The translations under genes were made by a program, and so were the position numbers. Below the pieces are notes generated by a model. The model did no database searches, was not told the DNA's origin, and saw nothing but the letters and a program-made list of their open reading frames with translations. Positions 1,611-61,075 of a DNA stretch of 64,000 nt are shown here, one piece after another. How positions within the stretch are numbered: position 1 is the first letter of the stretch; each line of letters starts with the position of its first letter. The DNA is from Squalus acanthias. Its lineage: Eukaryota. The stretch is from the NCBI GenBank assembly GCA_030390025.1, contig CM059432.1:89344001-89408000 (forward strand), given 5' to 3'.

Positions 1611-1614
1611 TTTG

Positions 1615-1965: not shown

Positions 1966-2029
1966 GAGCAAGAACATGATCCAGATCATATTCTCCCCCT
2001 TGGTTATACGTGGATCACATTCTTCCAAA

Positions 2030-2205: not shown

Positions 2206-2312
2206 CACATGCACCCCACACACCAACACACCCACACACCCCACATACGCATACCCCACACGTGCACCACACACACGTGCACCACACATACGTGCACCAC
2301 ACACACACACAA
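2205..2312. repeat. CA-rich degenerate microsatellite with repeated CACACGTGCAC units
   Basis: Visible directly in the sequence. Confidence 0.8.
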
Positions 2313-2540
2313 TCACAAACCCGCACCTATTGGGTTATTGACTGGCAAATCCTTACCAGTTTCCTGCTATAATAGCACCACCCTGAGATCCAGAGGCCAT
2401 TGCATTTTTGCATTTACTTTTTTCCATTTCCTATTTCAATGAGCGTTTCTTAGAAACATAGAAGATAGGAGCAGGAGTAGGCCATTCAGCCCCTCGAGCC
2501 TGCTCCGGATTTCGATGAGATCATGGCTGATCATCCAAAC

Positions 2541-5374: not shown

Positions 5375-5472
5375 GTTTGATTTAAACCGTTGAGTTCTTT
5401 GCCTTCTACTTTTGTTTTTCTCCTTCCTGTCTTTTGCTTTTATCCTTGTTTCCCTTTCCTCTGTCTCCCTGC

Positions 5473-6447
5473 TCAGGTTCCCAACCCCCTGCCACTTTTG
5501 TTTAAACCCTCCCCAACAGCACTAGCAAACACTCCCCCTAGGACATCGGTCCCAGCCCTGCCCAGGTGCAGACCATCCCGTTTGTACTGGTCCCACCTCC
5601 CCCAGAACCGGTTCCAATGTCCAAGGAATTTGAATCCCTCCCCCTTGCACCATTCCTCTAGCCACGTATTCATTTGAAATATCCTCCTATTTCTACTCTG
5701 ACTAGCACGTGGCACTGGTAGCAATCCTGAGATTACTACCTTTGAGGTCCTATTTTTTAATTTACCTCCTAACTCCCTATATTCTGCTTTTAGGACCTCA
5801 TCCTGTTTTTTACCTATATCGTTGATGCCTATGTGCACCACGACAACTGGCTGTTCGCCCTCCCCCTCCAGAATGTTCTGTAGCCGCTCTGAGACGTCCT
5901 TGACCCTTGCACCAGGGAGGCAACACACCATCCTGGAGTCTCGTTAGCGGCCGCAGAAACGCCTATCTATTCCCCTTACAATTGAATCCCCTATCACTAT
6001 AGCTCTTCCACACTTTTTCCTCCCAGCCTGTGCAACAGAGCCACCCATGGTGCCAGGAAGTTGGCTGCTGCTGCCTTCCCCTGATAAGCCATCCCCCCCA
6101 ACAGCATCCAAAGTGGAATATCTGTTTGAGAGGGGGATGGCCACAGGGGACCCCTGCACTACCTGCCTGCACCTCTTACTCTGCCTGGTGGTCACCCATT
6201 CACTTCCTGCCTGTACACCCTTTACCTGCGGTGTGACCAACTCTCTAAATGTGCTATCCACGACGTCCTCAGCGTTGCGAATGCTCCAATATGCATCCAT
6301 CCGCAGCTCCAGCACCGCAATGCGGTCCATCAGTAGCTGCAGCTGGATACACTTCCCACACACATGGTCGTCAGGGACACAGGAAGCGTCCCTGATTTCC
6401 CACATATAGCAGGAGGAGCATATCACAGGGCGGAGCTCTCCTGCCAT
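5473..6447 (-). pseudogene. CR1 ORF1: N-terminal CxxC...CxxC zinc finger/leucine zipper plus SGNH esterase; one in-frame stop at 5944-5946
   Basis: CSSC...CGKC, GDSIVR, VHIGINDIG and DGLHL motifs. ORFs 5944-6447 and 5473-5931 are in the same frame, separated by TAA-RDSR. Confidence 0.9.
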
Positions 6448-7419: not shown

Positions 7420-7545
7420 GAAGACAGAAAATGCTGGAAATACTCAGCAGGTCAGGCAGCATCCATGGCAAGAGAAATAGAGTTCACCTCTCAGGTCAAG
7501 GTGCTGCCTGACCTGCTGATACTTTTATTTCAGATTTACAGCATC
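7420..7545. mobile_element. Decayed inverted Penelope-like short element, same family as 52740-52844
   Basis: cagcaggtcaggcagca (7445-7461) is inverted at 7502-7518. 'cagaaaatgctggaaatactcagcagg' is the reverse complement of the 3' part of the 52740 element. Confidence 0.55.
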
Positions 7546-7754
7546 CGCTCGCAGAGGGAAGAGGAAGACGCAGAAGTGGAGGAAGCAGAAGAGGAGGAAG
7601 CAGAAGGAAGGATGGAATCATCCGCCTGCGGTACAAGTGGCCACAACCCCAATTCCCTTTTCAACATTTATCCCACACCTTACTTTCCCTCTGTTACTGA
7701 CCATCACAGCTTCCTCTTGGCCACAATGCTTTTTTTGCTGGGATGTGGGCATCG

Positions 7755-10140: not shown

Positions 10141-12285
10141 AGGAGGGTTTCCTTAGTGTGAAGATGGGACTTCGTCTCCACAAGGACTGTGCAGTGGTCA
10201 CTGCTGCCAATGCTGTCATGAACAGATGCATCTCCAACAGGTAGATCAGTGAGGAAGAGGTCAAGTCGGTTTTTCCTTCATGTTGGTTCTCTCACCACCT
10301 GCCGCAGGCCCAGTCTGGCAGCTATGTCCTTCAGGTTTCCTTGTCGATGCTTGATCTGAAGCCATGAGTCTTCATAGGGGTCTGGAAATAGACTAGTCTG
10401 TGGGACAGCTCTCACAATTTTGGCACAAGTCCCCAGATGATGGTGAGGAGGACTTTGCAGGGTCGACTGGGCTGGGTGTGCCTTTGTCGTGTCTGAAGCC
10501 GGTGCCGAGGTCGATGCCAGGTGGTCCTTCTGGTTTTAATCTAATTAATGTTATTCGTAGCGGTATGGTACAACTGAGTGGCTTGCTTGGCCATTTCAGA
10601 GGGCAGACAAGATTTTTTTTTATTCGTTTATTGGATGTTGGCGTCGCTGGCAAGACCAGCATTTATTGCCCATTCCCTAATTGCCCTTGAGAAGGCGGTG
10701 GTGAGCCGCCTTCTTGAACCGCTGCAGTCTGTGTGGTGAAGGTACTCCCACAGTGCTGTTAGGTAGGGAGTTCCAGGATTTTGACCCAGCGACAATGAAG
10801 GATCGGTGATATACTTCTAAGTCAGGATGGTGTGTGACTTGGAGGGGAACTTGGAGATGGTGGTGTTCCCATGCGCCTGCTGCCCTTGTCCTTCTAGGTG
10901 GAAGAGGTCGTGGGTTTGGGAGGTGCTGCTGAAGAAGCCTTGGCGAGTTGCTGCCGTGTATCTTGTAGATGGTACACACTGCAGCCACGGTACGCCGGTG
11001 GTGGAGGGAGTGAATGTTTAAGGTGGTGGATGGGGTGCCAATCAAGCGGGCTGGATGGTGTTGAGCTTCTTGAGTGTTGTTGGAGCTGCACTCATCCAGG
11101 CAAGTGAAGAGTGTTCCATCACACTCCTTACTTGTGCTTTGTAGATGGTGGAAGGGCTTTGGGGAGCCAGGAGGAGAGACACTCGCCGCAGAATACCTAG
11201 CCTCTGACCTGCTTTTGTTGCCACAGTGTTTATGTGGCTGGTCCAGTTAAGTTGCTTGTCAATTGTGACCCCCAGGATGTTGATGGTGGGGGATTTGGCG
11301 ATGGTAATACTGTTGAATGTCAAGGGGAGGTGGTTAGACTCTCGCTTGCTGGAGATAGTCATTGCCTGGCACTTCTGTGGTACGAATGTTACCTGCACAA
11401 GCCTGAATGTCATCCAGGTCTTGTTGCATGCAGGCATGGACTGCTTCATTATCTGAGGAGTTGTGAATGGTGCTGAACACTGTGCAGGCATCAGCGAACA
11501 TCCCCATTTCTGACCTTATGTTGGAGGGAAGGTCATTGATGCAGCAGCTGAAAATGGTTGGGTCTAGGACAATCCCCTGAGGAATTCCTGCAGCGATGTC
11601 CTGGGGCTGTGATGATTGACCTTCAACCAGCACAACCATCTTCCTTTGTGCTAGGTATGACTCCAGCCAGTGGAGCATTTTCCCATTGACTTCAGTTTTA
11701 CTAGGGCTCCTTGATGCCACACTCGGTCAAATGCTGCCTTAATGTCAAGGGCAGTCACTCTCACCTCACCTCTGGAATTCAGCTCCTTTGTCCATGTTTG
11801 GACCAAGGCTGTAATGAGGTCGGGAGGTCGGGAGCTGAGTAGTCTTGGCGGAACCCAAACTGGGATTCTGTGAGCAGGTTATTGGTGAGTAAGTGCCACT
11901 TGATAGCACTGTCGATGACACCTTCCATCAGTTTGCTGATGATTGAGAGTAGACTGATGGGGCGGTAATTGGCTGGGTTGGATTTGTCCTGCTTTTTGTG
12001 GACAGGACATACCTGGGCAATTTTCCACATTGTCAGATAGATGCCAGTGTTGTAGCTGTACTGGAACAGCTTGGCTAGAGGTGCGGCTAGTTCTGGAGCA
12101 TCAACCACATTGTTGTGGGTCAGGAGTTACATATAGGCCAGACCAGGTAAGGACGGTAGATTTCCTTTCCTAATGGACATTAGTGAACCAGATGGGTTTT
12201 TACAACAATCCAGTAGTTACATGATCACCATTACTGACACTAGCTTTTTATTCCAGATTTATTTAATTAACTGAATTTAAACTGA
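10140..12285 (-). mobile_element. Older LINE 5' portion (SINE-like head plus endonuclease fragments), split by the 10613-12100 insertion
   Basis: 10575-10612 and 12101-12285 join into the same core found in the SINE at 52225-52555. 10140-10460 matches endonuclease sequence of the copy at 26590-26820. Confidence 0.7.
10613..12100 (-). mobile_element. 5'-truncated CR1/L2-group LINE (RT and 3' end with A-rich tail)
   Basis: NYRPISLLSIISK, QFGFR, GIPQG and FAD motifs in frameshifted ORFs. The 3' end GGGCAATAAATGCTGG...AAAAAAAA lies at 10613-10690. Confidence 0.88.
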
Positions 12286-14929: not shown

Positions 14930-17345
14930 AAAATGATACAGCACCGAAGGAGGCCATTCGGCCTGTGCTGGCTCTTTGAAAGAGCTATCCAATTAGTCCC
15001 ACACCCTGGCTCTTGCCCCATAGACTGGCAAATTTTTCCCCTTCAAGTATTTATCCAGTTCCATTTTGAAAGTTACTATTGAATCTACTTTAACCACCCT
15101 ATCAGGCAGTGCATTTCAGATCATAACAATTTGCTGCATAATTATTTTTTCCTGATGTCGCCTCTGGTTCTTTTGCCAGTTACCTTAAATCTGTGTCCTC
15201 TGGTTACTGACCCTTCTGCCAGTGGAAACAGTTTCTCCTTATTTACCCTTCGTGATTGTGAACACCTCTATCAAATCTCCCTTTAACCTTCTCTGCCCTC
15301 AGGAAAACAACCCCAGTTTATTTAGTCTCTTGACGTAACTGTAGTCGTTCATTCCTGGTACCATTCTAGTAAGTCTCCACTGCACCCTCTTTGGCCTTGA
15401 CATCTTTCCTAAAGTGTGGTGTCCAGAACTGGCCACAATACTCCAGATGGGGCTTAACCAGTGTTTTATAAAGTTTGTCATAACTTCTTTGCTTTTGTAC
15501 TCTGTGCTAAGAATCCCGTATTCCTTTTTAACAGCCTTCTCAGTTTGTCCTGCCACCTTTAAAGACTTGTGTACGTACACCCCCAGGTGTCTCTGTTCTT
15601 ACACCCTGGTTGAAATTGTGTCATTTAGTTTATAGTGCTTCTCCTCATTCTTCCTACAAAAATGAATCTGTGTTAAATTTCATCTGTCATGTGTCTGTCC
15701 ATTTGACCAGTCTATGTCCTCCTGAAGTCTGTTACTATCCTCCTCACTGTTTACTACATTTCCAAGTATTGTGTCATCTGCAAACTTTGCAATTATGCCT
15801 CCTATACCTAAGTCCAAGTCATTAATATATGTCAAAAAGAGCAGTTGTTCCAACACCGATCCCTGGGGAACATCACTGCACACTTTCCTCCAGTCTGAAA
15901 AACAACCGTTAACTACTCTCTGTTTCTGTCCCTTTGCCAATTTCGTATCCATGCAGCCACTGCCCCTTTAATCCCATGGACTTCAATCTTGTTAACAAGT
16001 CTATTATGTCTGTTATGTACTGGCCCAGAAATTCGTCCGAATACGGGAGAGTACGCATTGTGTACTCACCCATATTCAGTCCCGAAGTGCCGGTTTCCTG
16101 CATGCACTGCGCATGCGCGGGAAACCGGCACTTCCGATATTGCGAAGGGGCCGGTTCCTAAGTGAACCGCGTGCGCACTACAGGCTGTGCGCACGCAGCA
16201 CACTTAGTTTTTTTTTCAGGTTTGAACGCGAAGGTAAGTGTTGAAGATTTTACACATGAAGAAAGGAGGCGTAAGACCCCCTTTTAACAAGGTAAGTAGT
16301 TAATTAAGTATTATTTAAAAAAAATTTCAACAGGTTTATCTTTTTTAGAGACTTTAAAGAAAGGTAAGTTTATTTTTATAACTTTTAAAAAGAATTTAAA
16401 TTTTTTCAAAAATTTAAATTTTTGTTTAAAGTGGTTAATTTATTTAACTATGGTTATTTTATTAATGTGATGTTTTTTAAATTTAATTGAGGTTTAGCTA
16501 TTCTTTTGGGGGCAATTTGTATTCATAGTTTTAACAGCTCTTCCTGTCAAAACTATGAATGAAAGATGGTGTGCTGCCATTGGCTCTAACTGGCCCACGT
16601 GATCCCAGAGGTTGCATCGAACTAACTGCGCCTCTGAGACACGCACACACTGTGCACCGGCACCAGGGAGAGGCCCAGGAACTGAAGTTCGTGTGGGCCA
16701 AAACCATAAAGGCAGGCGCGGAGTGCGATATCGCGGGGGATCCTTACCCCCGCGGCAACCATCGAAGTCCAATTTCTGGGCCCTAGTTTATCAAAAGCCT
16801 TTTGAAAGTCCATATGTACAACATCAACTGGACTACCCTCATCAACCCTCTCCGTAACTTTATCAAAGAACTTTAGTCAAACACAATTTGCCTTTAACAA
16901 ATCTGTACTGGCTTTCATTTATTAACCCATATTTTCCAAGTGCTAATTAATTTTGTCCCAGATTATTGTCTCTAAAAGTTTCCCCACCACCAATGTTAGG
17001 CTGACTGGTCTGCAGTTTCCGGGTTTATCCCTCTCCCCTTTTTTGAACAGGGATGCAACATTTGCAATCCTCCAGTCCTCTGGTACCACTCCTATATCTA
17101 TAAGGATTGGAAGATTGTGGACAGAGCCTCTGCAATTTCCAACCATACTTCCCTCAGCAACCTAGGATGCATCCCATCCGGACCGTGACTTTTCTACTTT
17201 GAGTGCTGCCAAACTTTTGAGTATCTCCTCTTTATCTATTTTTATCCCACCCAATTTCTCTATTACCTCCTCCTTTACTGTGACATTAGCAGCATTCTAA
17301 TATTTAGTGAAGACAGATGCAATGTATTAATTTAGTACTTCAATG
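14930..17345 (-). mobile_element. Degraded 5'-truncated CR1, split by a MITE at 16022-16782
   Basis: VPEDWRIANV, DFQKAFDK, VPQGSVL and FADDT fragments; CR1 3' tail at ~14935-14970. Confidence 0.88.
16022..16782. mobile_element. Harbinger-type MITE, family A copy 1 (761 bp)
   Basis: TIRs GGCCCAGAAATT...AATTTCTGGGCC; interrupts the CR1 RT just after DFQKAFDK; highly similar to 22160-22903. Confidence 0.9.
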
Positions 17346-20930: not shown

Positions 20931-22159
20931 GTTAAAGCCTGTGAGGCCTGACTCTAAGAGCTTTTAATATAGCCCATTCCATATCGTCCTCCTCCAATAT
21001 AAAAATAGAGAAATTCCCATTGAGAATGCAAATCAATGCAAATCAGTCCTGTGAGCAGAGCTGATTGAAACTAGCAGCAAAGGTTCTGACTGAACATTCA
21101 AAGTACTAATAGGTTCAATATGCAGGCAAAGTACCACCAATCTCAGCACACAAAACGGCCTCCCAAATTTTGGCATCGCCCTCAGGGATTTAAATGAATA
21201 TTTTGCATCTGTGTTCACTATGGAGAAGGACGATGTAGGCATAGAAATCAGACAGGGGGATTGTGATATATTTGAACAAATTAGTATTGAGAGGGAGGAG
21301 GTACTAGCGGTTTTAGCGGGCTTAAAAGTGGATAAATCCCCAGGCCCAGACGAGATGTATCCCAGGCTGCTGTGTGAGGCAAGGGAGGAGATTGCAGGGG
21401 CTCTGACACAAATTTTCAGAACCTCTCTGGCAACAGGGGAGGTGCCAGAGGACTGGAGAACAGCTAACATAGTACCATTGTTCAACAGGGGTAGTAGGGA
21501 TAAACCAGGGAATTACAGGCCAGTGAGCCTAACATCAGTGGTAGGGAAATTAGTGGGAAAAATTCTGAGGGACAGAATTAGTCTCCACTTGGAGAGGCAG
21601 GGATTAATCAAGGATAGTCAGCATGGCTTTGTCAGGGGGAGATCATGTCTGACCAATTTGATTGAACTTTTCGAGGGGGTGACTAGGTGTGTGGATGAGG
21701 GTAGTGCAGTTGATGTGGTCTACATGGACTTCAGTAAGGCTTTTGACAAAGTCCCGCATGAGAGACTGGTCAAGAAGGTAAGAGCCCATGGGATCCAGGG
21801 CAACTTGGCATATTGGATCCAAAATTGGCTTAGTGGCAGGAGGCAGAGGGTGATGGTCGAATGTTGTTTTTGTGACTGGAAGCCTGTGTCCAGTGGTGTA
21901 CCGCAGGGATCGGTGCTGGGTCCTTTGCTGTTTGTAGTGTACATTAATGATTTAGATATGAATGTAGGAGGTATGATCAGTAAGTTTGCAGATGACACGA
22001 AAATTGGTGGGGTGGTAAATAGCGAGGAGGGAAGCCTCAAGCTACAGGACGATATAGACGGTTGGTCAGATGGGCAGATCAGTGGCAAATGGAATTTAAC
22101 CCTGAAAAGTGTGAGGTGATGCATTTTGGGAGGACTAACAAGGCAAGGGAATACACAAT

Positions 22160-22903
22160 GGCCCGAAAATTAGACCTAATACGCGAGAGTACGCACTGTG
22201 TACTCTCGCGTTTTAGGTCTCCAATTGCCGGTTTCCAGCATGCACTGCACATGCGCGGGAAACCGGCACTTCGTGAACTCAAAAGGGGGCGGTTCCTAAG
22301 TGAACCGCGTGTGCGCTACAGGCTGCGCGCACGCAGTGCACTTAGTGCTTTGAACGCGCAGGTAAGCATGGAAGATTTTGCACATAAAGAAAGGAGGCGT
22401 AAGACCCTCTTTTAACAAGGTAAGTAGTTAATTAAGTATTATTTTACATTTTTTTCAACAGGTTTATCTTTTTTAGAGACTTTAAAGAAAGGTAAGTTTA
22501 TTTTTATAACTTTTAAAAAGATTTTAAATTTTTTCAAAAATTTAATTTTTTGTTTAAAGTGGTTAATTTATTTAACTATACTTATTTTATTAATGTGATG
22601 GCTTTTTTTTTAAATTTAATTGAGGTTTAGCTGTTCTTTTGGGGGGGTATAGATTCATAGCTTTGACAGGTCTTCCTGTCAAAACTATGAATGAAAGATG
22701 GTGTGCTGCCATTGGCTCTAACTGAATCACGTGATCCCAGAGCTCGCACGAACTAACTGCGTCTCTGGCTCACGCAAGCACTGCACAGCTGCAGCCTTGA
22801 AACTAAAGTTCGTGTGAGCCCGGAGGGAAAAGGTAGGCGCGCAGTGAGATATCGCGGGGAAGCCTTACCCCCGCAGGAACGCTCCGTGTTTAATTTCTGG
22901 GCC
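22160..22903. mobile_element. Harbinger-type MITE, family A copy 2 (744 bp), 3-bp TSD AAT
   Basis: TIRs GGCCCGAAAATTA / TAATTTCTGGGCC; AAT at 22157-22159 and 22904-22906. The empty site ATACAC-AAT-GAATGG is present in the sister CR1 at ~59531-59545. Confidence 0.95.
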
Positions 22904-23054: not shown

Positions 23055-23270
23055 TCATGATGCGGAGATGCCGGTGTTGGACTGGGGTGGACAAAATTGA
23101 GAGGTCGCACAACACCAGGTTATAGTCCAACAGTTTTATTTGAAATCACAAGCTTTCGGAGCTATCGATTGCTCCTTCCTTCACCTGAGGAAGGAGCAAT
23201 CGATAGCTCTGAAAGCTTGTGATTTCAAATAAAACTGTTGGACTATAACCTGGTGTTGTGCGACCTCTCA
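23055..23270. mobile_element. Fold-back Penelope-like mini-element with hammerhead motif; 12-bp TSD
   Basis: TSD ATAGAATATAAG at 23043-23054 and 23271-23282. Inverted arms 23096-23180 and 23188-23272 match at 84/85. The empty site is present in the sister CR1 at ~59676. Confidence 0.9.
23181..23222 (+). ncRNA. Minimal type I hammerhead ribozyme motif
   Basis: TCAC-CTGAGGA-A-GGAGC(aatcgata)GCTCT-GAAA-GC-TT-GTGA: helix I TCAC/GTGA, core CUGANGA...GAAA, palindromic AGCT in place of helix III, and a UH cleavage site. Confidence 0.75.
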
Positions 23271-26589: not shown

Positions 26590-27466
26590 ATGTCTCTGAG
26601 TGGCTCGGTAGCACCACTACTGATGGAGTTGGCCGAGTCCTGAAGGACATAGCTGTCAGACTGGGCCTGCGGCAGGTGATGAGAGAACCAACACGAGGGA
26701 AAAACCTACTTGACCTCATCCTCACCAATCTACCTGTCGCAGAGGCATCTGACCATGACAGCATTGGTAGGAGTGACCACCGCACAATCCTTGTGGAGAC
26801 GAAGTCCCGTCTTCACACTGAGGACACCCTCCATCGTGTTGTGTGGCACTACCACCGTGCTAAATGGGATAGATTCAGAATAGATCTAGCCGCGCCAAGC
26901 TGTTCCAGTACAGAAACAACAAAGTGAAAAATTGCCAGATATGGCCTGTCCACAAAAAACAGGACAAATCTAATCCGGCCAATTACCACCCCTTCAGTCT
27001 ACTCTCAATCATCAGCGAAGTGATGGAAGGTGTCATCGACAGTACAATCAAGCGGCAATTACTCACCAATAGCTTGCTCACCAATGCTCAGTTTCGGTTC
27101 CGCTAGGACCACTCGGCTCCAGACCTCATTACAGCCTTGGTCCAAACATGGACAAAAGAGCTGAATTCCAGAGGTGAGGTGAGAGTGACTGCCCTTGACA
27201 TCAAGGCAGCATTTGACACCACCACCTCCAAGTTCCCCTCCAGGTCACACACCATCCTGACTTGGAAATATATTGCCATTCCTTCATCATCACTGGGTCA
27301 AAATCCTGGAACTCCAGAGCCTACCTAACAACACAATACCTTCACCACACGGACTGCAGTGGTTCAAGAAGGTGGCTCACCACTACATTCTCAAGGGCAA
27401 TTAGGGATGGGCAATAAATGCTGGCTTTGCCAGTGATGTCCACATCCCATGAATGAATTTTAAAAA
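26590..27466 (+). mobile_element. Internally deleted copy of the CR1/L2-group LINE (EN fragment, RT fragment, 3' tail)
   Basis: PTRGKNLLDLILTN...SDH, NYHPFSLLSII and ALDIKAAFD motifs, then a jump to the same 3' tail as 10613-10860. Confidence 0.85.
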
Positions 27467-49256: not shown

Positions 49257-52224
49257 AACATTGAGGGAGAAATCTTGTGCCATTTCTGGTTCTGTCAATC
49301 TGCCACTAGAAAACCCCTTGGAAATTCCGGGTGATTATGAATGTGTTTCACTATCTTGAAATGACATTAAATATGAGTATACAAATGGTAAATGAATTTG
49401 TATGAAATTACTTTGTCCAATTTTTTAATGGAGGTGTTATTCAATTTAAAGTAGGGTTAAAGTAGGGTTTAATACCTCTGTTAAAGTAGCAAAATGTTTG
49501 TACGCTAAAGTTCACGCAGCATAAGTTCAAGGCCTGTGTCACTTTTGTTTGGCTCAGATCTGTATTGAATAGCTGCTCTACAGAAGCAAGGGCTCAGTGG
49601 CACAAAAGGCAATTGATGCATTCAAAATGGCAAATCTATAATTCTATAGTTCTCTTCCAATATTGAAATTGAGCACCTTTCACAGGATGTGAGAGTCTGC
49701 TGTACATTCCCGGTTTTACAATTGAAAACTCAATGATTTGCCAAACGATAAAGTATGAAGTGATGTTGGGGTTATATATGTCACTAAGTTAAGCAGAGTA
49801 AAATGTGATTACAAATATGCAGAGTTTTAAGAAATAAAATGCTCCTTGCAAGCTAACTTACCATTACAAAATATTACTACAAAAACTAGGACAGACCGAC
49901 TTGCAGTTTAGCAATACAATCACACTCATTACTTTTGAGCATGGGGAGCTCAAGATTTTGGCAGTTATACTGGTTATTTACATTTAGACCCCATTTTTGC
50001 AGAACTTACGCCAAAATTGCTGACAGAACTTGTTTTCTTAACCTGGAATGTAAAAATTGGCACAAAACAAGCTCAAATGCAGTGGCACCAACAGAAGTAA
50101 TAGTGAGTGAGCTGCTGACTTCTGCCATGACGCCTCACTCTCCGAACCTCTTGCCTCGCTGCTCCTCTTCCTCTTCCCCTTCCTTATATGCAGAGCAGGG
50201 GTATGCCTATTAGGAAGGCCATTTCAGCCTCTGAGTCCTTCCGAACGCATGAAGGGCACGGGAATCGGAGGAAATTCTCATGTCCCAATATTTCAGCTTA
50301 AATCTGGCATAAATTAGTTATGCACAAATTTCCTCAGAAAAAAATGGCACAATACCGCTCTTACACCGTAGTTACACTGAAGGGTTTCAGGAAATTCCAG
50401 GTTTAGTGTGTGTAGGGAGATTGAAAGGCTACCATTGCAGTCTGTCTTAACATATTAGTGTGCATGTGCATCTGGTGATGCATCACATGACTTCTAGAGT
50501 TAAACTGTGAACAAGCATTTTAATGAGAGCATGTCAGATAAAGATACTTTGGCCTAGATTTTCCATTCCCCTCCGCAGATTTTTAAGTGGATCTAAGGCA
50601 GGGAGTGGGCACATTTCCTCCCACCCAGCCCTGTAACCAGGCCACCGCACAGTATATCTCCCCTAGCATTGCTTGTGGGCTAGGAGTAGAGGCCTAAGAG
50701 CAAGTTTTAAAGCAGGTTTGAGGCAGGATGGCACACAAAGAATGTAGCAAGCACTGGGAGTGGGGCTGGAGCAGGGGAGAGTTGCTTTGGTCTGAGAGCA
50801 GTGGTGACTGGGAAGCGAATGAATCAGAAGAGAGTTGAAGAATGAGTGGGGAATGCATTATGGCTGCACTGATTTTCTCTGTAACTGATTCTCTCAATAT
50901 GATTGGTCCGTAGTGACAACATGACCAATAACTTTATTTGGTTAGAACGTCTCAATAAGCAATGTTGGAGGCTCTGTACTAATCAGTACAGTCTCTTCAA
51001 ATTCATGCTTTTACAGGCTCAAAAAGGTATTCTCCACTTTAGGACGGAATGCCATCGGCCCAAAGGGACATGCAGTGGTGCTGCTTGAGGCGGATGGGGC
51101 AGGAGTGAGCAGCAGTGGTCCTGGTGGGTGGCAAAAGGAAGGAAATCCCGGTTGGGGCAGTGAGCTGGTGGTAAGCCTCACTGAATTAATTTTCCCTCAT
51201 TCTCCACTGCAATCCCACATGATTTTAGGTGGGATCATGGAGGAGAATTCCCTCCAAAGTTTCTAACAGTGTTGTTTTTTGAGTTGGACAAGATTTTTAA
51301 AAATTTCATACAGAATGTCATGATAAAGTACAAAACATTACTGGTTTTTCTTCACCAATAAATGGTTTCTGGTTAGATATTATCTTGAAATACAGTAAAG
51401 AATTAGGCACAATGTGATAAAATAAAGCTTGTTGTTGTAACTTGGAGAGGACTGATGTTCGATCAACCCTCCTCTCCTAAAAAATACATTTTGAGTATGA
51501 TGGCTTTTGTGTTCTGCCGAAACTTGCTCCCCATAAGTGCCTATGTTTTGTAAATGCAAGTGTTCTTTGTACTCACAGAGTAAATGAGAAATCACCAGGA
51601 TACTTGAGCATTTCTCCAGTTACAAAGACAAGCAGGGCACTGGAAAAATTGGCACTCGTCTCATTTTATGACCTGAAAGCCATGCAGAAAAAAGAATTTT
51701 AACAACCAAATTACTTTTACGAAGCTCTGTTGGTAGCAGAGATCACTAGCTGCTTCCTAGCTGCGATACCTAATCTGTATCGATGCCTTAGAGACAGTGG
51801 GCTATTGATTTTTACCTGCCTGTACTCTATGACCATATCCTCAGCTTTTTAGACATCTGTGAAAATATAAACTGGGCTTTCAGTACAACTTCTATCACCA
51901 CCACAAACTGTGTTCGAGAAAATCTTTACCAAAGTAAATAATCTCAGAGAGACATTTAAAAAGAACAACAACACTGCCAAGTTGTTTCTCTAATGTTATA
52001 TAGTGATCCTCCAAATATTACAGTAAAGGAGAGCAAAAGTAATTGTCGCAAATCTTTGGTTAAAACTGAGTTCTTTATTCAGTGGCTTTAGAGATAGATA
52101 GGTTTGCACAATGCCAATCCTTTTGTAGCTGAGATAAACGGTGCAAGTTCACAGCACTGAAACAAAGAATTAGTGTTACAAGACAACTGAACCGTTGCCA
52201 TTTGCTTTGCCTCAAATGTTTTAA

Positions 52225-52555
52225 AAATATATTCTTGGGATGTGAGCATTGCTGATAAGGCTGGCATTTATTGCCCATCTCCAATTGCCCTGCAAAGGTG
52301 GTGGCGGCTCTGGAACTGAAAAGCTTGCTAGGCCACTTCAGACGGCATTGGTGTAGGACTGGAGTCACATATTGGCCAGACCGGATAAGGACGGCAGGTT
52401 TCCTTCCCTAAAGAACATTAGTGAACCAGTTGGGTTTTTACAACAACCTGACAGCTTCATGGTCACTTTTACTGATACCAGCTTTTGTTTTATTTCCATA
52501 TTTTTTAAACGGATTTCAATTTCTCAAACTGCTATGGTGGGATTTGAACTCACGT
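52225..52555 (-). mobile_element. tRNA-derived SINE with Meta-like core and a 3' tail shared with the 10613-12100 LINE family
   Basis: Minus strand: B-box-like GAGTTCAAATCCC (~52540-52552), core TTTAGGGAAGGAAACCTGCCGTCCTTATCCGGTCTGGCC...GTGACTCCAG, tail GGGCAATAAATGCC...CACATCCCAAG. The Meta-domain assignment is from memory. Confidence 0.7.
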
Positions 52556-52739
52556 TGCTGGGAACTGAAAATAAAAATAGAGAATGCTAGAAATACTCAG
52601 GATATTATTTTGTGAATCTGTATGCAGAGATTAGACAAGCGTGTAGCAAAGGCAGAGTGGTTTTAATGGGGGATTTTAACTTTCATATAGATTGGGATAA
52701 GCAGACTAGCATCCTGTCTGAAAGGTAATGAATTTCTTG

Positions 52740-52844
52740 CTCTTTCAGTTCCGACGAAGGGTTTCGACCTGAAACGTTAACTCTCTTTCTCTCTCCTCGG
52801 ATGTTGCCTGGCCTGCTGAGTTTTTCCAGCGTTTTCTGTTGTTA
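52740..52844 (+). mobile_element. 105-bp Penelope-like insertion with minimal hammerhead motif; 14-bp TSD
   Basis: TSD TAATGAATTTCTTG at 52726-52739 and 52845-52858. Motif AGTT-CCGACGA-A-GGGT(ttcg)ACCT-GAAA-CG-TT-AACT at 52747-52782. Confidence 0.8.
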
Positions 52845-54604
52845 TAATGAATTTCTTGAGTTGTCCGGGATAGTTTTCTGCAGCAATATGTCCTGGAGCC
52901 AACAAGGGGGCATGCCATATTAGATTTAGTAATGAGTAATGTGTAATGAATAATGAGCCAGATTTAGTTAACAGCCTAACTGTGTGTGAACATTTACCTA
53001 ATAGTGATCATAACATGATCAAGTTCAACACAGTGTTTGAAAGGGAGAAATGCGAAACAGCTATGAAGATTCTAGATTTAGGTAAGGCTGACTTCAATGG
53101 GATGAGGCAGAGACTGTCCACAGTAAACTGGACAAATCTGTTAATGGGTAAAACGACAGAGGATCAGTGGGAGGTGTTCAAAAAGGAATTTAAAGTGATA
53201 CAGAACCAGTTTATACCCCTAAGGGGCAAGAGCTCTACTTGCCATAAAAACAGCCATGGACGACTAAAGAGGTAAGAGACAACATAAAAGAAAAAGAAAA
53301 AGAAAAAGCATACAAAAATGCAAAAAATAGCACAGATCCTGGTGAATGGGAAAGATACAAAGAACAGCAAAGGGCCACAAAACAGATAGTAAGAGCTACA
53401 AAAAGGGAACTTTCAAGGGCTATCAAAATCAACACACAAAATATTACAATTACATTAGGAAAAAGAAGGTGGTCAGGAGCAATGTTGGCCCCTTGAAAAC
53501 CAATAACGGTGATATTTTCAATGATAATAAGGAAATGGTGGACTTGTTGAATAATTACTTTGCGTCAGTATTTACAGTAGAGGAAGATCCATGGAAACTA
53601 ATATTGAATCAGGGACAGGGACTCAACAAAATTAGCGTAAGCAAAATAACAGTAATGAAGAAAATAATGGCACTAAAGAGTGACAAATCCCCAGAACCAG
53701 ATGGTTTCCATCCCAGAGATTTAAAGGAAGTATGAGAGCGCATTGCAGATGCCCTAACTATAATCTTACAAAGTTATCTCGATTCATGAACCGTTCCTTT
53801 AGATTGGAAAATTGCTCATGTCACTCCGCTATTTAAGAATGGCAAGAGAGGAAAACCAGAGAATTATGACTAGTTAGCCTAACATCTGATGTCAGGAAAT
53901 TACTAGAGTCTATAATTAATGATAGAGTGACTGAACACCTTGAAAATTTTCAGCTGATCAGAGAAAGCCAGCACAGTTTTGTGAAAGGTAGGTCATGCCT
54001 GAGGAACTTGATTGAATTTTTTGAAGAGGTGACTAACGTAGTGGACAGGGCAATGTCTATGAATGTTATATATATGGACTTCCAGAAGGCATTTGATAAA
54101 GTCCTCAGAAGAGATTGTTAACTAAGGTTGAAGCCCATGGAATTGAAGGCAAATTATTGGCCTGGTTAGGAAATTGACTGAGCGGAGGGAATCAGAGAGT
54201 AGGGATAATGGGCAGGTACTCAAATTGGCAGTGGTGTCCCACAGGGATCTGTGTTGGGGCCTCAACTATTCACAGTATTTATTAACGACTTAGATGATGG
54301 CATAGAAAGTCATATATCCAAATTTGCCGATGACACAAAGATAGGCGGCATTGTAGGCAGTGTAGATGAAAGCTTAAAATTACAAAGGGATATTGATAGA
54401 TCAAGTGAATGGGCAAAACTGTGGCAAATGGATTTCAATGTAGGCAAATGTGAGGTCATCCACTTTGGACCTAAAAAGGATAGAACATGGTACTTTCTAA
54501 ATGGTGAAAGGCTAAAAACAGTGGACGTCCAAAAAGACTTGGGGGTCCAGGTACATCGATCATTAAAATATCATGAACAGGTACAGAAAATAATCAGAAA
54601 GGCT

Positions 54605-55217
54605 CATAAGAACATAAGAAATAGGAGCAGGAATAGGCCACTTGGCCCCTCAAGACGGCTCCGCCATTCAATAAGATCATGGCTGATCTTGGGCTCAAAG
54701 CCACTTCCCCGCCCGCTCCCCATAACCCTTTACTCCGTTATCTTGCAAAAATTTGTCTATCTCCACCTTAAATGTATTTAATGACCCAGCCTCCACGGCT
54801 CTCTGGGGCTGAGAATTCCACAGATTTACGACCCTCTGAGAGAAGAAATTCCTTCTCATTTCAGTTCTAAAAGGGTGACCCTTTATTCTAAAACTCTGCC
54901 CCCGCGTTCTAGATTTCCCCACGAGGGGAAACATCCTCTCTGCATCTACCTTGTCATGCCCCCTCAGTATCTTATATGTTGCAATAAGATCACCTCTCAT
55001 TCTTCTAAATTCCAATGAGTATAGGCCCAGCCTGCTCAACCTTTCCTCATAAGTCAAACCCCTCATCTCGTGAATCGTCTCTGAACTGCCTCCAATGCAA
55101 GCATATCCTTCCTTAAATAAGGAGACCAAAACTGTACGCAGTACTCAAGGTGTGGTCTCACCAATACCCTGTACAGTTGTAGCAGGACTTCCCTGCTTTT
55201 ATACTCCAACCCCTTTG
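54605..55217 (-). mobile_element. CR1 3' fragment inserted in opposite orientation into the host CR1
   Basis: ORF 54695-55129 is a CR1 C-terminus, with tail cataagaacataag at 54605. The host reads AAAGGCT|AATGGCATGCTGG across the insert. Confidence 0.88.
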
Positions 55218-56631
55218 AAATGGCATGCTGGCCTTTATATCTAGAGGACTAAAATACAATGGTGCAGGAGGGAGGGCTTTAGATTCCTGAGGCATTGGGA
55301 CCATTTCTGGGGAAGGTGGGACCTATACAAACTGGACAGGTTACACCTCAACAGAACCGGGACCAATATTCTCGCGGGGAGGTTTGCTAGTGCTGTTGGG
55401 GAGGGTTTAAACTAGCTTGGCAGGTGGATGGGTACCAGCATATAGGAGTAGAAAAGAGGAATAAGGTGCATGAAAGAGTGAGTGTGTTGGATAGTACTAG
55501 AGAAGAAATTAGTACTTGAGGCGGAAATAGTACCATATTAGATAGGAGCAGACCAAGAAAGACTACGAAAAATTCAAAAATGGGTTTAGAATGCATGTAC
55601 GTAAACGCACACAGTGAGGTAAAAAAGGTTGGTGAGCTACAAGCACAATTAGCCATGTGGCAATATGATGTTGTGGCAATAACGGAAACGTGGCTTAAAA
55701 ACGGTGAGGACTGGGCACTTAATATTCAAGGGTACAAAGTGTTCAGAAAAGATAGGGAAGGAAAAAAGGGAGGTGGGGTGGCAGTGCTGATTAAGGAAGA
55801 CATTGTAGTGCTGGAAAGGGAGGATGTTCTTGAGGGGACAAGGACAGAATCCATTTGGTTAGAGTTGAGGAGCAAAAAGGGTATGATCACGCTATTGGGG
55901 GTATTCTATAGGCCTCCAAATAGTGAGAGGGAGGTAGAGGAGCAAATCTGCAGGGAGTGAAATTAAGAAACACTTCTACACACAAAGGGTGGTAGACGTT
56001 TAGAACTCCCTTCCGTAAATGGCAATTAATGCCAGATCATTTGTTAATTTTAAATCTGAGATTGATAGATTTTTGTTAACCAAAGGTATTAAGGGATATG
56101 GGCTAAAGGCGGGTATATAGAGTTAGGTCACAGAGCAGCCATGATCTCATTGAATGGCGGAACAGACTCGAGGGGCTAAATGGCCTACTCCTGTTCCTAT
56201 GTTTAGTTGGGCATATAAATTAACATACGTCATAGGGAACCTTAAAGGGTGCAAAAGAAAGACGAAATTATGGAGTAAGTTAATCAGGGTTCTATGAGTC
56301 AGAATCTGAAAGAGAAAGCTAGTTTAATGTTTTGAAGCTGCGCTGAAGAGTTTACACCGAATGCATTAACCTCTCAGAGAGATGGAACAGCTGTAACAGG
56401 CCGAATGGCTTCTTTAAGTGCTATAAAACTCTATGAGGTGACGTTTCCTCCTGAGTGCACATCGTGCAGGCGGGCGGGCAGCCACCCAGTAGTCACAGCA
56501 GGAGACCTGGTTCGTTTTGCGGGCCGAGGTTATTTGCATCAGGACAGTGGGCTGCAACCGGCTTCGAGCTCGGGGCTGCCGGAATATCATGTGGCACAGC
56601 AGGGCTATAGCCAAATAAGACAGGTGCATTG

Positions 56632-57066
56632 GAGGCAGGGGGCGGGGCAGCTCCTTCCCGGGAAGGGGCGTTGCAGCTCGATCTCGGGAGGGGCGGGGCA
56701 CCGCGATCTCGATCTCGGCAGGGGGCGGGGCAGCTCCTTCCCGGGAAGGGGCGTTGCAGCTCGATCTCGGGAGGGGCGGGGCACCGCGATCTCGATCTCG
56801 GCAGGGGGTGGGGCAGCTCCTTCCCGGGAAGGGGTGGGGCAGCTCGATCTCGGGAGGGGCGGGGCACCGCGATCTCGATCTCAGGAGGGGGCGGGCCAGT
56901 TCGATCTCGGGAGGGGGCGGGGCAGTTCGATATCGGGAGGGGGCGGGGCACATCGATCTCGGGAGGGGAGAGGCAAATCAATCTCGAGAGGGGAGGGGCA
57001 GATCGATCTCGGGGGGGAGGGGCAGATCAATCTCGGGAGGGGGAGGGGCAGATCGATTTCAGGAGG
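56632..57066. repeat. G/CpG-rich minisatellite, left part; includes three 83-bp higher-order units
   Basis: Core GGGGCAGCTCGATCTCGGGAGG; CAGCTCCTTCCCGGGAAGGGG recurs at 56648, 56731 and 56814. Confidence 0.9.
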
Positions 57067-57260
57067 GGATATGGAGTGGAACTATAGTAGGGGGTGATGC
57101 ACAGCCAAATATAGAGGAAAAAACAAGTCAGCCTGGAAGGCAGAGCAAATATGTAATGGCACAAGGGAGTATGACAAGGCTGGTTGGCATTTATTTTAAT
57201 GCAAGGAGTCTTGCGAGTAAGGCAGATGAATTGAAGGTGTTGATGAACACATGGGACTAT

Positions 57261-57468
57261 CCATGATGTGGAGATGCCAGTGTTGGACTGGGGTGGACAA
57301 ATGTGAGAAGTCACACAACACCAGGTTATAGCCCAACAGCTTTATTTGAAATCACAAGCTTTCGGAGCGCTGCTCCTTCGTCAGGTGAAGTGATGAAGGA
57401 GCAGCGCTCCGAAAGCTTGTGATTTCAAATAAAGCTGTTGGACTATAACCTGGTGTTGTGCGACTTCT
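57261..57468. mobile_element. Fold-back Penelope-like mini-element with hammerhead motif; ~13-bp TSD
   Basis: TSD CACATGGGA(C/G)TAT at 57248-57260 and 57469-57481. Inverted arms 57301-57383 and 57391-57473 match at 80/83. Confidence 0.9.
57352..57388 (-). ncRNA. Minimal type I hammerhead ribozyme motif (intact core)
   Basis: Minus strand reads TCAC-CTGACGA-A-GGAGC(agc)GCTCC-GAAA-GC-TT-GTGA. Confidence 0.8.
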
Positions 57469-60282
57469 CACATGGGAGTATGATATTGTTGCTATCACAG
57501 AGACATGGTTGAGGGAGGGGCAGGACTGGCAGCTCAATATTCCGGGGTATAGAATCTTCAGGCGAGACAGAGGGGGGTGTAAAAGAGGAGGGGGTGTCGC
57601 AATATTAATCAAGGAGTCAATTACTGCTGTAAGGAGGGATGATATCTTAGCAGGTTCCTCTAATGAGGCCATATGGGTAGAACTTAAAAACAAAAAGGGG
57701 ACAAGCACTTTGCTGGGAGTGTACTATAGGCCCCCAAACAGTCAGGGGGAGATAGAGGAACAGATATGTAGGCAAATCTCAGAGAAGTGTAGAAATAATA
57801 GGGTAATAATAGTAGGGGATTTCAACTTCCCCAATATTAACTGGGATAGTCAGAGTGTGAAAGGCTTAGAGGGTGCGGAATTCTTAAAGTGCATCCAGGA
57901 GAGCTTTTTGAGCCAGCATGTAGAAAGTCCAACAAGAGAGGGGGCGGTACTGGACCTAATTCTAGGGAATGTATCCGGGCAAGTGGTAGATGTGTCAGTA
58001 GGAGAGCATTTTGGTGACAGTGACCATAATTCGGTGAGATTTAAGGTAGTCATGGAAAAGGACAAAGATGGACCGGAAATAAAGGTTCTAAACTGGGGGA
58101 AGGCCGATTTTAATATGATAAGGCAGGATCTGGCCAAAATGGACTGGGATCAGCTACTTGTAGGAAAATCCACATCAGAGCAATGGGAGTCTTTCAGAAA
58201 GGAAATAGAGAGAGTACAACGCCAACATGTTCCCGTAAAGGTCAAGGGTGGGACCAACAAGCCCAGGGAACCCTGGATGTCAAGGGATATACAAGAATGG
58301 ATTAGGAAAAAGATGAAGGCTTTTGGCAGATACAAAGGACTAAAAACAGTGGAAGCCCTAGAGGAGTATAGAAAGTGCAGGGGGGTACTTAAAAAAGAAA
58401 TTAGGAGAGCAAAGAGGGGGCATGAAAAAACACTGGTGGACAAAATAAAGGAAAATCCAAGGTGTTTTATAAGTATATTAAGGGCAAGAGGATAACCAGG
58501 GAGTAAGTAGGGCACATTAGGGACCAAAGTGGCAATCTGTGTATTGTGCCGGAAGATGTAGGTGAGGTTTTAAATGAATATTTTGCATCTGTGTTCACTA
58601 TGGAGAAGGGTGATGTAGGCATAGAAATCAGGCAGGGGGATTGTGATGTACTTGAACAAATTAGTATTGAGAGGGAGGAGGTACTAGCGGTTTTAGCGGG
58701 CTTAAAAGTGGATAAATCCCCAGGCCCTAACGGGATGTATCCCAGGCTGCTGTGTGAGGCAAGGGAGGAGATTGCAGGGGCTCTGACACAAATTTTCAGA
58801 ACCTCTCTGGCCACAGGGGAGGTGCCAGAGGACTGGAGAACAGCTAACATAGTACCATTGTTCAACAGGGGTAGTAGGGATAAACCAGGGAATTACAGGC
58901 CAGTGAGCCTAACATCAGTGGTAGGGAAATTAGTGGGAAAAATTCTGAGGGACAGAATTAGTCTCCACTTGGAGAGGCAGGGATTAATCAAGAATAGTCA
59001 GCATGGCTTTGTCAGGGGGAGATCATGTCTGACCAATTTGATTGAATTTTTTGAGGGGGTGACTAGGTGTGTGGATGAGGGTAGTGCAGTTGATGTAGTC
59101 TACATGGACTTCAGTAAGGCTTTTGACAAAGTCACACATGGGAGACTGGTCAAGAAGGTAAGAGCCCATGGGATCCAGGGCAATTTGTCACATTGGATCC
59201 AAAATTGGCTTAGTGGCAGGAGGCAGAGGGTGATGGTCGAAGGTTGTTTTTGTGACTGGAAGCCTGTGTCCAGTGGTGTACCGCAGGGATCGGTGCTGGG
59301 TCCTTTGCTGTTTGTAGTGTACATTAATGATTTAGATATGAATGTAGGAGGTATGATCAGTAAGTTCGCAGATGACACGAAAATTGGTGGAGTGGTAAAT
59401 AGTGAGGAGGGAAGCCTCAGGCTATAGGACGATATAGACGGGATGGTTAGATGGGCAGAACAGTGGCAAATGAAATTTAACCCTGAAAAGTGTGAGGTGA
59501 TGCATTTAACAGGACAAACAAGACAAGGGAATACACAATGAATGGTAGGATCCTAGGAAGGACAGAGGATCAGAGGGACCTTGGTGTGCATGTACATAGA
59601 TCCCTGAAGGCAGCAGGACAGGTAGATAAGGTGGTTAAAAAGGCATATGGGATACTTGCCTTCATTAGCCGAGGCATAGAATATAAGAGCAGGGAGGTTA
59701 TGATGGAGCTGTACAAAACATTAGTTAGGCCACAGCTGGAATACTGTGTGCAGTTCTGGTCACCACACTATAGGAGGGATGTAATTGCATTGGAGAGGGT
59801 GCAGAGGAGATTCATCAGGATGTTACCTGAGCTGGAGCGCTTCAGCTATGAAGAGAGACTGGACAGGCTGGGGTTGTTTTCTTTAGAGCAGAGAAGGCTG
59901 AGGGGGACCTGATTGAGGTGTACAAAATTATGAGGGGCATAGATAGGGTAGATAGAAAGGAACTTTTCCACTTAGTAGAGGGGTCAATAACCAGGGGGCA
60001 TAGATTCAAGGTAAGGAGCAGGAGGTTTAGAGGGGATTTGAGGAAAAACTTTTTCACCTAGAGGGTGGTTGGAATCTGGAACTCACTGCCTGAAAGGGTG
60101 GTAGAGGCAGGAACCCTCACAACATTCAAGAAGCATTTAGATGAGCACATGAAACGCCATAGCATACAAGGCTACGGACCAAGTGCTGGAAGATGGGATT
60201 AGAATAGACAGGGCTTGATGGCCGGCGTGGACACGATGGGCCGAAGGGCCTCTTTCTGTGCTATATGACTCTATGACTATGA

Positions 60283-60790
60283 GGGCGAGGAGGGGGAGGG
60301 GGAGGGTAGCTCGATCTCGGGAGGGGGTGGGACAGGCACGATCTCGGAAGGGGGAGGGGCGGGGCAGCTCGATTTCGGGAGGGGGCAGGGGCAGCTCGAT
60401 CTCGGGAGGTGGAGGGGGCGGGGCAGTGTGATCTCGGGAGGGGAGGGGTCGGGGCAGCTCGATCTCGGGAGGGGGAGAGGGCGGGGCAGCTCGATCTCGG
60501 GAGGGGGAGAGGGCGGGGCAGCTCGATCTCGGGAGGGGGAGGGGGCGGGGCAGCTCGATCTCGGGAGGGGGAGAGGGCGGGGCAGCTCGATCTCGGGAGG
60601 GGGAGGGGGCGGGGCAGCTCGATCTCGGGAGGGGTAGAGGGTGGGGCAGCTCGATCTCGGGAGGGGGAGGGGTCGGGGCAGCTCGATCTCGGGAGGGGGA
60701 GGGGGCGGGGCAGCTCGATCTCGGGAGGGGGCGGGGCAGCTCGATCTCGGGAGGGGGCGGGGCAGCTCGATCTCGGGAGGGGGAGGAGGC
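60283..60790. repeat. G/CpG-rich minisatellite, right part (about 16 units of ~26-33 bp)
   Basis: Tandem GGGGCAGCTCGATCTCGGGAGGGGG with variable G/A spacers. Confidence 0.92.
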
Positions 60791-60819
60791 CGGATTTGTG
60801 AAGTCTGGAGGTGCCCTCT

Positions 60820-61075
60820 TCCTCTTTTAATGTAAACCAATCAATTATCTGTAACTAAATAAAACTTTAAAGGAAACTTAACAAATCAAATTAAAATTTG
60901 GTAGTCCGGGGTGACGATGCACTCCAGCCCCCGCGGCGCCCACCGGTCGCGGAAAAACTCAAGCGTGCCGGCGGACACCGCGTGCTCCATCTCCAGGGCC
61001 ACCCGGGCACGAACATGGCCGCGGAAGAGAGGCAGGCAATCGGGCCGAACGAGGAGGTGCCCTCTTGCTGCTCCC
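60820..61075 (-). mobile_element. Tx1/L1-group LINE ORF2 C-terminal fragment with short 3'UTR
   Basis: DCLPLFRGHVRARVALEMEHAVSAGTLEFFRDRWAPRGLECIV...stop resembles Tx1-type ORF2 C-termini (recognised from memory); CpG-rich. Confidence 0.6.

What the first reader, a model, noticed from the sequence alone, without database searches (positions are those of the whole stretch)
52726..52858. A second, sequence-unrelated hammerhead family: 105-bp insert with a perfect 14-bp TSD
Seen: helix I AGTT/AACT, core CCGACGA (U4 to C, probably inactivating), the same extra A, stem II GGGT-TTCG-ACCT, GAAA, palindrome ACGT and UH. All helix sequences differ from the first family while the topology is identical, which is covariation-like support for the ribozyme reading of both. 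Inference: 3' terminal remnant of another Penelope-like lineage; the insert again begins just upstream of the ribozyme.
Basis: partly seen in the sequence, partly recalled or inferred. Interest (0 to 1): 0.7.

Follow-up and report, generated by a model that had tools for sequence, protein, structure and literature searches.

The report
Penelope-type retroelement stub with damaged hammerhead
A 105-base scrap from the end of a Penelope-type jumping gene sits inside an older, dead jumping gene and carries one damaged copy of a small self-cutting RNA motif that is already known to be typical of such elements, so the catch is real but ordinary.

Summary
A 105-bp insert (52740-52844) lies between two exact 14-bp repeats inside the endonuclease region of a dead LINE. 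Without it, the LINE aligns gap-free to an intact paralogue. The insert matches the published minimal-hammerhead descriptor of Penelope-like elements (PLEs) except for U4C. About 0.02 such hits per window arise by chance. Corrections: the family stem II is 5 bp with a 3-nt loop, so UUCG is peculiar to this copy; U4C is known to weaken, not always abolish, cleavage; unrelated families do not show covariation; and truncation points vary. A second copy (7424-7546) is head-to-head inverted with a one-sided tail, a PLE hallmark. No parent ORF was linked, so PLE origin is inferred (about 0.8). The class was described in 2014, and this scan has noted it several times elsewhere in this genome. New member of a known kind; low interest.

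The parts
52726..52739 (.). Left copy of the 14-bp target-site duplication (original LINE sequence)
   Evidence: LINE paralogues in public runs carry this stretch once, running straight on into the right flank (tables 5c and 7)
52740..52844 (+). 105-bp insert: 5'-truncated end (pseudo-LTR part) of a high-copy Penelope-type family, without the optional tail
52740..52746 (+). Pyrimidine-rich leader before helix I; with 52747-48 it reads like a splice acceptor (YnCAG), untested
   Evidence: U-rich flank is part of the published min-HHR consensus (PMC4209133 Fig S3)
52747..52750 (+). Hammerhead helix I, 5' strand (AGUU)
   Evidence: same letters in the loose-end consensus of 4 of 4 runs
52751..52757 (+). 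First core strand C3-A9, CCGACGA; 52752 is U4C, where related copies have CUGA
   Evidence: table 7
52758..52758 (+). Extra nucleotide between A9 and 10.1, typical of PLE min-HHRs
   Evidence: PMC4209133
52759..52770 (+). Stem-loop II: 4 bp with G.U at 10.1-11.1 and a UUCG loop in this copy; 5 bp with A-U at 10.1-11.1 and a 3-nt loop in related copies
52771..52778 (+). Second core strand GAAA, palindrome ACGU (52774-77, loop-less helix III that can pair only between two copies) and H17 = U52778; predicted cut between 52778 and 52779
   Evidence: no other letter listed at 20% or more over 52766-78
52779..52782 (+). Hammerhead helix I, 3' strand (AACU)
   Evidence: A>G at 52779 in 22% of depth in one of four runs keeps a G.U pair
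52783..52844 (+). Downstream part of the element up to the point where the optional tail begins, 66 nt after the cut site
   Evidence: (loose ends behind 52845)
52845..52858 (.). Right copy of the target-site duplication
52627..55221 (+). Host: dead, 5'-truncated LINE of the APE-endonuclease/RT type (CR1/L2-like; limits approximate). The insert interrupts its endonuclease region
   Evidence: tblastn 54% over 65 codons, no gap across the empty site; blastn to paralogues; RVT_1 at 54209-54781; the paralogue at 3168-5943 has esterase, Exo_endo_phos and RVT_1
7424..7546 (.). Second element of the same family: head-to-head inverted pair. Minus arm 7499-7424 (84% identical, truncated inside stem II, no tail); plus arm 7502-7546 (internally deleted, with tail)
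   Evidence: no convincing TSD
52560..52601 (-). Degraded fragment of the same family's 3' end and tail, about 125 bp upstream of the insert
   Evidence: weak (blastn-short E 0.009 to the 7424 arm)

Best explanation
The insert is a heavily 5'-truncated retro-copy of the 3' end (pseudo-LTR) of an endonuclease-bearing Penelope-like retroelement. Inferred steps: the element's RT/GIY-YIG protein nicked an AT-rich site in an old LINE, and staggered nicks 14 bp apart gave the TSD. Reverse transcription began inside the RNA, 66 nt downstream of the hammerhead cut site (the tail-less start). It ran through the uncut ribozyme and stopped 7 nt upstream of helix I. Shown here: the insertion, the TSD, the empty-site LINE, the min-HHR layout, a CUGA core in related copies, and an inverted-plus-tail sister copy. 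In the intact family the motif is a minimal type I hammerhead with no helix III of its own; it would cut only as a dimer through the ACGU palindrome and/or with the element's protein. This lone copy has U4C and a shortened stem II and is most likely inert.
For: TSD and gap-free empty site. LINE paralogues with a single copy of the target (26 contigs in X5 at the loose end behind 52711; table 5c). Descriptor match versus 2 hits in 100 shuffles. Family core CUGA in 104, 117, 152 and 100 contigs' loose-end consensus in four runs of four organisms. Summed contig depth over 52766-52843 of 3e4-6e6, against 36-3119 over 52714-39, marking a discrete, very abundant repeat (not a copy number). Loose ends behind 52845 begin TTCAGATTT in 4 of 4 runs and match the tail on the 7502-7546 arm. 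Head-to-head inversion, one-sided 30-40-bp tail and 5' truncation are PLE traits (PMC8557442 passages; PMC3846280 passages), and family 1 shows them too. PAc starts reverse transcription internally, uses uncut RNA and prefers ATT targets (PMC11167929); ATT lies next to the predicted bottom-strand nick.
Against: No PLE RT or GIY-YIG ORF was found in the window (Pfam on 22 of 35 long ORFs; motif scan) or linked to the family (no genome held). The TSD (14 bp) is longer than the 8-10 bp examples seen in PMC3846280 passages. The conserved G10.1-C11.1 pair is absent (G.U here, A-U in related copies). Rfam gave no hammerhead hit. The active dimer fold scores -3.7 kcal/mol against -18.7 for the best two-strand fold. 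The runs hold at most 0.51 of the words and no listed contig spans this locus, so they show relatives of the family, not necessarily this genome. One loose-end row (X5, 52763, 12 contigs) does not show the core, and 1010 rows were not displayed.
Confidence: 0.8

Rival explanations
1. Monomer of a non-autonomous PLE derivative (non-LTR retrozyme or SINE-like mini-element): a short hammerhead RNA with its own unit length, mobilised in trans by PLE protein, rather than a random truncation of a full element.
For: The family is far more abundant in the laid contigs than the host LINE, and agreement among loose ends upstream of helix I is low (0.53-0.57 over 30 letters), as expected if many copies start there. 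Retrozyme units of 51-972 bp with dispersed monomers are reported in vertebrates, including one chondrichthyan (bioRxiv 10.64898/2026.07.22.740005, passages and part 2 of 5).
Against: No tandem unit at this locus. The four family-2 pieces in the window have four different 5' ends. The inverted-plus-tail form is that of ordinary PLE truncation. Low upstream agreement also fits several subfamilies or random truncation.
Confidence: 0.13
2. The 3' end of an ordinary LINE or SINE inserted by an APE-type LINE enzyme, with a hammerhead-like motif that is incidental or borrowed.
For: A 14-bp TSD and a T-rich 3' end fit LINE-type insertion (general knowledge). No PLE ORF is linked.
Against: No match of the insert to any LINE in the window. 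No tRNA gene found. All diagnostic min-HHR features are present. The sister copy is inverted with a one-sided tail.
Confidence: 0.05
3. The hammerhead reading is a chance pattern in a real but unrelated short insertion.
For: No Rfam hit. Folding is no better than shuffles. The copy fails the strict core.
Against: 2 hits in 100 shuffled windows. Related copies restore exactly the missing U4 and have a perfect 5-bp stem II.
Confidence: 0.02

Closest known systems
Minimal hammerheads (min-HHR) in the pseudo-LTRs of metazoan Penelope-like elements (Cervera & De la Pena 2014, PMC4209133; results, discussion, part of methods and the supplementary PDF read)
   Same: Type I layout, 4-bp helix I, extra nucleotide between 9 and 10.1, GAAA-C-G-U-H with a palindromic loop-less helix III, U-rich flanks, mostly single dispersed copies from truncated PLEs, several sequence-unrelated families per genome (6 in Latimeria, 8 in Xenopus), and opposite-strand pairs.
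   Different: This copy has U4C. The 10.1-11.1 pair is G.U here and A-U in related copies instead of G-C; both exceptions occur in their Fig S3. No cartilaginous fish is listed in the Fig S3 text I read. No ORF is linked here.
PAc, Poseidon-type PLE of Anolis carolinensis (Frangieh et al. 2024, PMC11167929; main text read, parts 1-2 of 4)
   Same: Hammerhead near the element end, copied uncut. The genomic end lies some tens of nt downstream of the cut site, with an optional tail beyond. AT-rich target with ATT.
   Different: The end is 66 nt after the cut site here, against about 85-92 nt for PAc (derived from their coordinates). No start codon at stem II here. No sequence comparison was made.
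Non-LTR retrozymes of animals (bioRxiv 10.64898/2026.07.22.740005; passages and part 2 of 5)
   Same: Short, non-coding, type I hammerhead, PLE-derived, with dispersed monomers.
   Different: Defined there by at least two tandem hammerhead units; this locus is a single copy with a TSD.
Hammerhead family 1 of this window (23099-23269, 57301-57473)
   Same: Same min-HHR topology, 4-nt palindrome, inverted pair with a one-sided tail of about 30 nt.
   Different: No sequence similarity beyond the core. Palindrome AGCU instead of ACGU. Intact CUGA. G10.1 start of stem II.

Membership tests
PLE minimal hammerhead (min-HHR) | First core strand CUGANGA, in this copy | tested here: not met
   CCGACGA; the strict descriptor misses it
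PLE minimal hammerhead (min-HHR) | First core strand CUGANGA, in the family | tested here: met
   Loose-end consensus before 52764 ends AGTTCTGACGAAAGGTCA in 4 of 4 runs; CTGATGA in a further X13 row. Relatives, not shown to be this genome
PLE minimal hammerhead (min-HHR) | [quoted passage not shown] | tested here: met
   A52758
PLE minimal hammerhead (min-HHR) | Helix II of 3-7 bp with a loop of 3-10 nt | tested here: met
   4 bp + 4 nt here; 5 bp + 3 nt in related copies
PLE minimal hammerhead (min-HHR) | G10.1-C11.1 pair (consensus feature, not required by the descriptor) | tested here: not met
   G.U here, A-U in related copies; exceptions of both kinds in PMC4209133 Fig S3
PLE minimal hammerhead (min-HHR) | GAAANNUH with palindromic 15.2-16.2 | tested here: met
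   GAAACGUU
PLE minimal hammerhead (min-HHR) | Helix I of 3-7 bp closing the core | tested here: met
   AGUU/AACU
PLE minimal hammerhead (min-HHR) | Self-cleavage after H17 (as a dimer or with protein) | not testable with these tools
   Needs an in vitro assay
Penelope-like element (EN+) | ORF with telomerase-like RT and GIY-YIG endonuclease linked to this repeat | tested here: inconclusive
   None in the window; peptide search empty; no genome held
Penelope-like element (EN+) | Tandem or partial-tandem arrangement forming pLTRs | not testable with these tools
   No long copy available
Penelope-like element (EN+) | 5'-truncated copies, head-to-head inverted copy, optional one-sided 3' tail | tested here: met
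   7424-7546 pair and loose ends behind 52845; one example in the window
Penelope-like element (EN+) | Short TSD at an AT-rich target | tested here: met
   14-bp TSD, 11 of 14 A/T, contains ATT; longer than the 8-10 bp examples read
Non-LTR retrozyme | At least two tandem units each with a complete hammerhead | tested here: not met
   Single copy at this locus; elsewhere in the genome not testable
Rfam hammerhead families | Covariance-model match | tested here: not met
   None of 13 matches at E<=5 is a hammerhead or overlaps the insert
tRNA-derived SINE | tRNA-like Pol III head | tested here: inconclusive
   ARAGORN found 0 genes in the window; a truncated copy would lack the head anyway

The most novel reading that the evidence does not exclude
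The changes at the 5' side of this copy (U4C, G.U at 10.1-11.1, one base lost from stem II) are the mark of a subfamily that spread with a crippled catalytic core, not private decay. Three changes fall in 13 nt, against three in the following 80 nt. Some depth aligns across 52745-63 with no alternative letter or gap listed. If so, it would be in-genome evidence that hammerhead cleavage is dispensable for Penelope retrotransposition and that the motif serves as an RNA signal. The missing row may simply reflect short contigs with the difference near their ends.
Probability: 0.08. Interest if true: 0.45.

Novelty: new member of a known kind. Interest (0 to 1): 0.15.

Why it matters
It matters little by itself. 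It is a clean, datable example (intact TSD, nested in an older LINE) of a very abundant min-HHR family, apparently not listed in the papers searched. The family's A-U closing pair of stem II is a minor variant. It would matter more only if the U4C form proved to be an amplified subfamily, because the role of PLE hammerheads in vivo is still open (PMC8557442; PMC11167929 found cleavage unnecessary for insertion in vitro).

Tried and rejected
No whole genome is held, so there is no in-genome consensus, copy count or parent search. Exact-pattern scans found 0 loci in viral contigs, metagenome contigs and prokaryote genomes; these collections are not expected to hold this animal. Rfam: no hammerhead among 13 matches. 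Single-strand folding gave no support, as expected for a motif without helix III. A six-frame scan for recalled short PLE protein motifs gave 1 isolated match at 24213(-), which I did not follow up and treat as chance. The insert has a stop-free frame, so I tested whether it encodes the start of a PLE protein: 4 candidates, 0 hits at E<=10 among longer proteins, which is weak evidence. No RNA holder listed; no RNA run was laid, so expression is untested. No orthologous filled or empty locus was seen among the listed contig pieces (32 shown, 48790 not shown), so age across species and polymorphism are open. Lunse et al. (dimer cleavage of PLE hammerheads) is not held; I saw only its citation and summary in PMC6765202 (passages). 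No similar stretch among earlier findings by sequence or nearby. Rejected: chance duplication; the insert as part of the LINE; homology to family 1; UUCG as a conserved family tetraloop.

Full report
Observation. The coordinates are right. TAATGAATTTCTTG occurs at 52726-39 and 52845-58 and nowhere else in the window on either strand, and the 105 nt between are the insert. An exact 14-mer at one given place has a probability of 1.2e-8. Of 29 exact repeats of 14 nt or more at 60-300 nt spacing in the window, 25 lie in two tandem arrays. The insert interrupts a dead LINE. With the insert and one repeat removed in silico, 65 codons align without a gap (54% identity) to the endonuclease ORF of the paralogue at 4400-5521(-); with the insert in place the alignment splits. 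That paralogue carries esterase, Exo_endo_phos and RVT_1 domains, a CR1/L2-type layout by general knowledge. In public runs, LINE paralogues carry the target once and run straight into the right flank (26 contigs in run X5 at the loose end behind 52711, and rows of table 5c). So this is a true insertion with a true TSD.

The hammerhead. I implemented the min-HHR descriptor printed in Fig S7 of Cervera & De la Pena 2014 (PMC4209133, supplement read). Strict, it finds 2 motifs in the window, both family 1. With position 4 free it finds 3, the third being this one. Allowing any single mismatch in the first core strand adds none. In 100 dinucleotide shuffles the counts were 1, 2 and 7. The copy has every feature that paper lists as emerging independently (extra nucleotide after A9, palindromic 15.2-16.2, short helix I) except G10.1-C11.1. 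Against: Rfam shows no hammerhead among 13 matches at E<=5; the strand folds no better than shuffles; and the nearest-neighbour energy of the active dimer (-3.7 kcal/mol) is far above the best two-strand fold (-18.7). Weak folding is expected for a motif without helix III, but it gives no support.

The family. No genome is held, and five pattern scans of viral and prokaryotic collections were empty. One search listed 24 runs, 20 holding part of 52300-53300 (best share 0.51). I laid 4 DNA runs from four coded organisms on 52610-52980 at 80% likeness; 6930, 13846, 23684 and 3986 contigs were laid. Summed depth over 52766-52843 is 3e4-6e6, against 36-3119 over 52714-39, so the insert is a discrete, very abundant repeat (depth is not copy number). 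Most contigs stop matching at 52764. Their loose 5' parts (104, 117, 152 and 100 contigs) have a consensus ending AGTTCTGACGAAAGGTCA in 4 of 4 runs, and a further X13 row (69 contigs) has CTGATGA. One small row (X5, 12 contigs) lacks the core, and 1010 rows were not shown. Read with the shared downstream letters, the family motif is AGUU / CUGAYGA / A / AGGUC-3 nt-GACCU / GAAA CGU U / AACU. This copy differs by U4C, A to G at 10.1 and one lost base, which creates the UUCG loop. Downstream it differs from most laid contigs at only 52785 and 52797 (4 of 4 runs) and 52804 (3 of 4). Caveats: the runs are relatives, no listed piece spans this locus, and no T row is listed at 52752 among the minority of contigs that align across it. 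That last point leaves a U4C subfamily open, though clipping at short contig ends explains it as well.

Anatomy pointing to Penelope. Behind 52845 the loose ends (180, 510, 1177 and 69 contigs) start TTCAGATTT and then lose agreement (0.40-0.45), which suggests an optional extension. The same extension is on the plus arm of a second family element at 7424-7546. That element is a head-to-head inverted pair, one arm without and one with the tail. 5' truncation, an adjacent inverted truncated copy and a one-sided 30-40-bp tail are described as PLE traits (PMC8557442, passages; PMC3846280, passages, with TSDs of 8, 9 and 10 bp and some copies with none). Family 1 in this window shows the same build with unrelated sequence. 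The four family-2 pieces have four different 5' ends, so starting just upstream of the ribozyme is not a fixed rule in this small sample. No PLE ORF was found: Pfam on 22 of the 35 ORFs of 150 aa or more gave only LINE-type domains, a motif scan gave one isolated match, and a peptide search was empty.

Mechanism. Shown: insertion, TSD, motif, family core, inverted-plus-tail sister. Inferred from PAc of Anolis (PMC11167929, main text): the PLE protein nicks AT-rich DNA, preferring ATT, and ATT lies beside the predicted bottom-strand nick here. It starts reverse transcription inside the RNA downstream of the hammerhead, at one of two sites that define the tail. It uses uncut RNA; the hammerhead cuts only with protein and is not needed for insertion in vitro. 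This fits an insert that holds both sides of the cut site and ends 66 nt after it without the tail. For the intact family, cleavage would need a dimer through ACGU; monomers were inactive and dimers weak in PMC4209133. U4C lowers activity considerably in vitro but was tolerated in a viroid (PMC3088659, passages). A lone min-HHR with U4C is very likely inert. I put this reading at 0.8, a non-autonomous retrozyme-like monomer at 0.13 (bioRxiv 10.64898/2026.07.22.740005, passages and part 2 of 5; its supplements are closed and may list this family), a LINE or SINE end at 0.05 and chance at 0.02.

Membership versus resemblance. The family meets the min-HHR descriptor; this copy fails it at U4 and is a degenerate member. 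It behaves like a PLE end, but the defining RT + GIY-YIG ORF was not linked, so PLE membership is inferred. It is not a retrozyme by the tandem criterion at this locus.

Novelty. The class, its multiplicity of unrelated families per genome and its dispersed truncated copies were described in 2014. I did not find this particular family in print (searches; subscription papers and Repbase/Dfam are not covered). Earlier notes of this scan report the same kind of motif, including two-family cases and intact PLEs, elsewhere in this genome, and call the genome shark-like. These are unchecked AI notes: I did not test the host identity or whether their families are this one. One of them led me to the PAc paper. 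Verdict: real, correctly read in outline, ordinary. Interest 0.15.

Noticed in passing
window 57270-57473 and 23070-23269: Both family-1 fold-back elements share a tail of about 30 nt on the left side only, outside the inverted arms. A 12-bp direct repeat (23043 / 23271) flanks the 23099 element and may be its TSD; the 57301 element has only an 8-bp candidate that overlaps the arm.
   Followed up: partly
window 52740-52748: The leader plus the first half of helix I reads like a 3' splice acceptor (pyrimidines then CAG). In D. virilis Penelope the intron end maps to the 5' end of helix I (PMC4209133). CAG is in the loose-end consensus of only 2 of the 4 main rows.
   Followed up: partly
window 52750-52845 (+): The insert has a stop-free frame of 32 codons from the core to its end; pLTRs of some PLEs include the first codons of the ORF. 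A protein search found nothing.
   Followed up: yes
window 52219-52560: A short dispersed repeat just upstream of the LINE, with relatives at 12108-12266, 27394-27466 and 10633-10701. It looks SINE-like on the minus strand (recalled resemblance, not tested). The family-2 tail fragment sits between it and the LINE.
   Followed up: no
window 56604-57074 and 60289-60850: Two related G-rich minisatellite arrays (26-32-nt units, with an 83-nt higher-order unit in the first) lie on either side of the LINE at 57.4-60.3 kb.
   Followed up: no
window 16083-16135 (with repeats 16021-16488 and 22159-22616): A short strong palindrome inside a two-copy repeat of about 460 bp.
   Followed up: no
window 52779: A>G at hammerhead position 1.1 in 22% of depth in run X6; it keeps helix I as G.U or may covary with position 2.1 (linkage not visible).
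   Followed up: no
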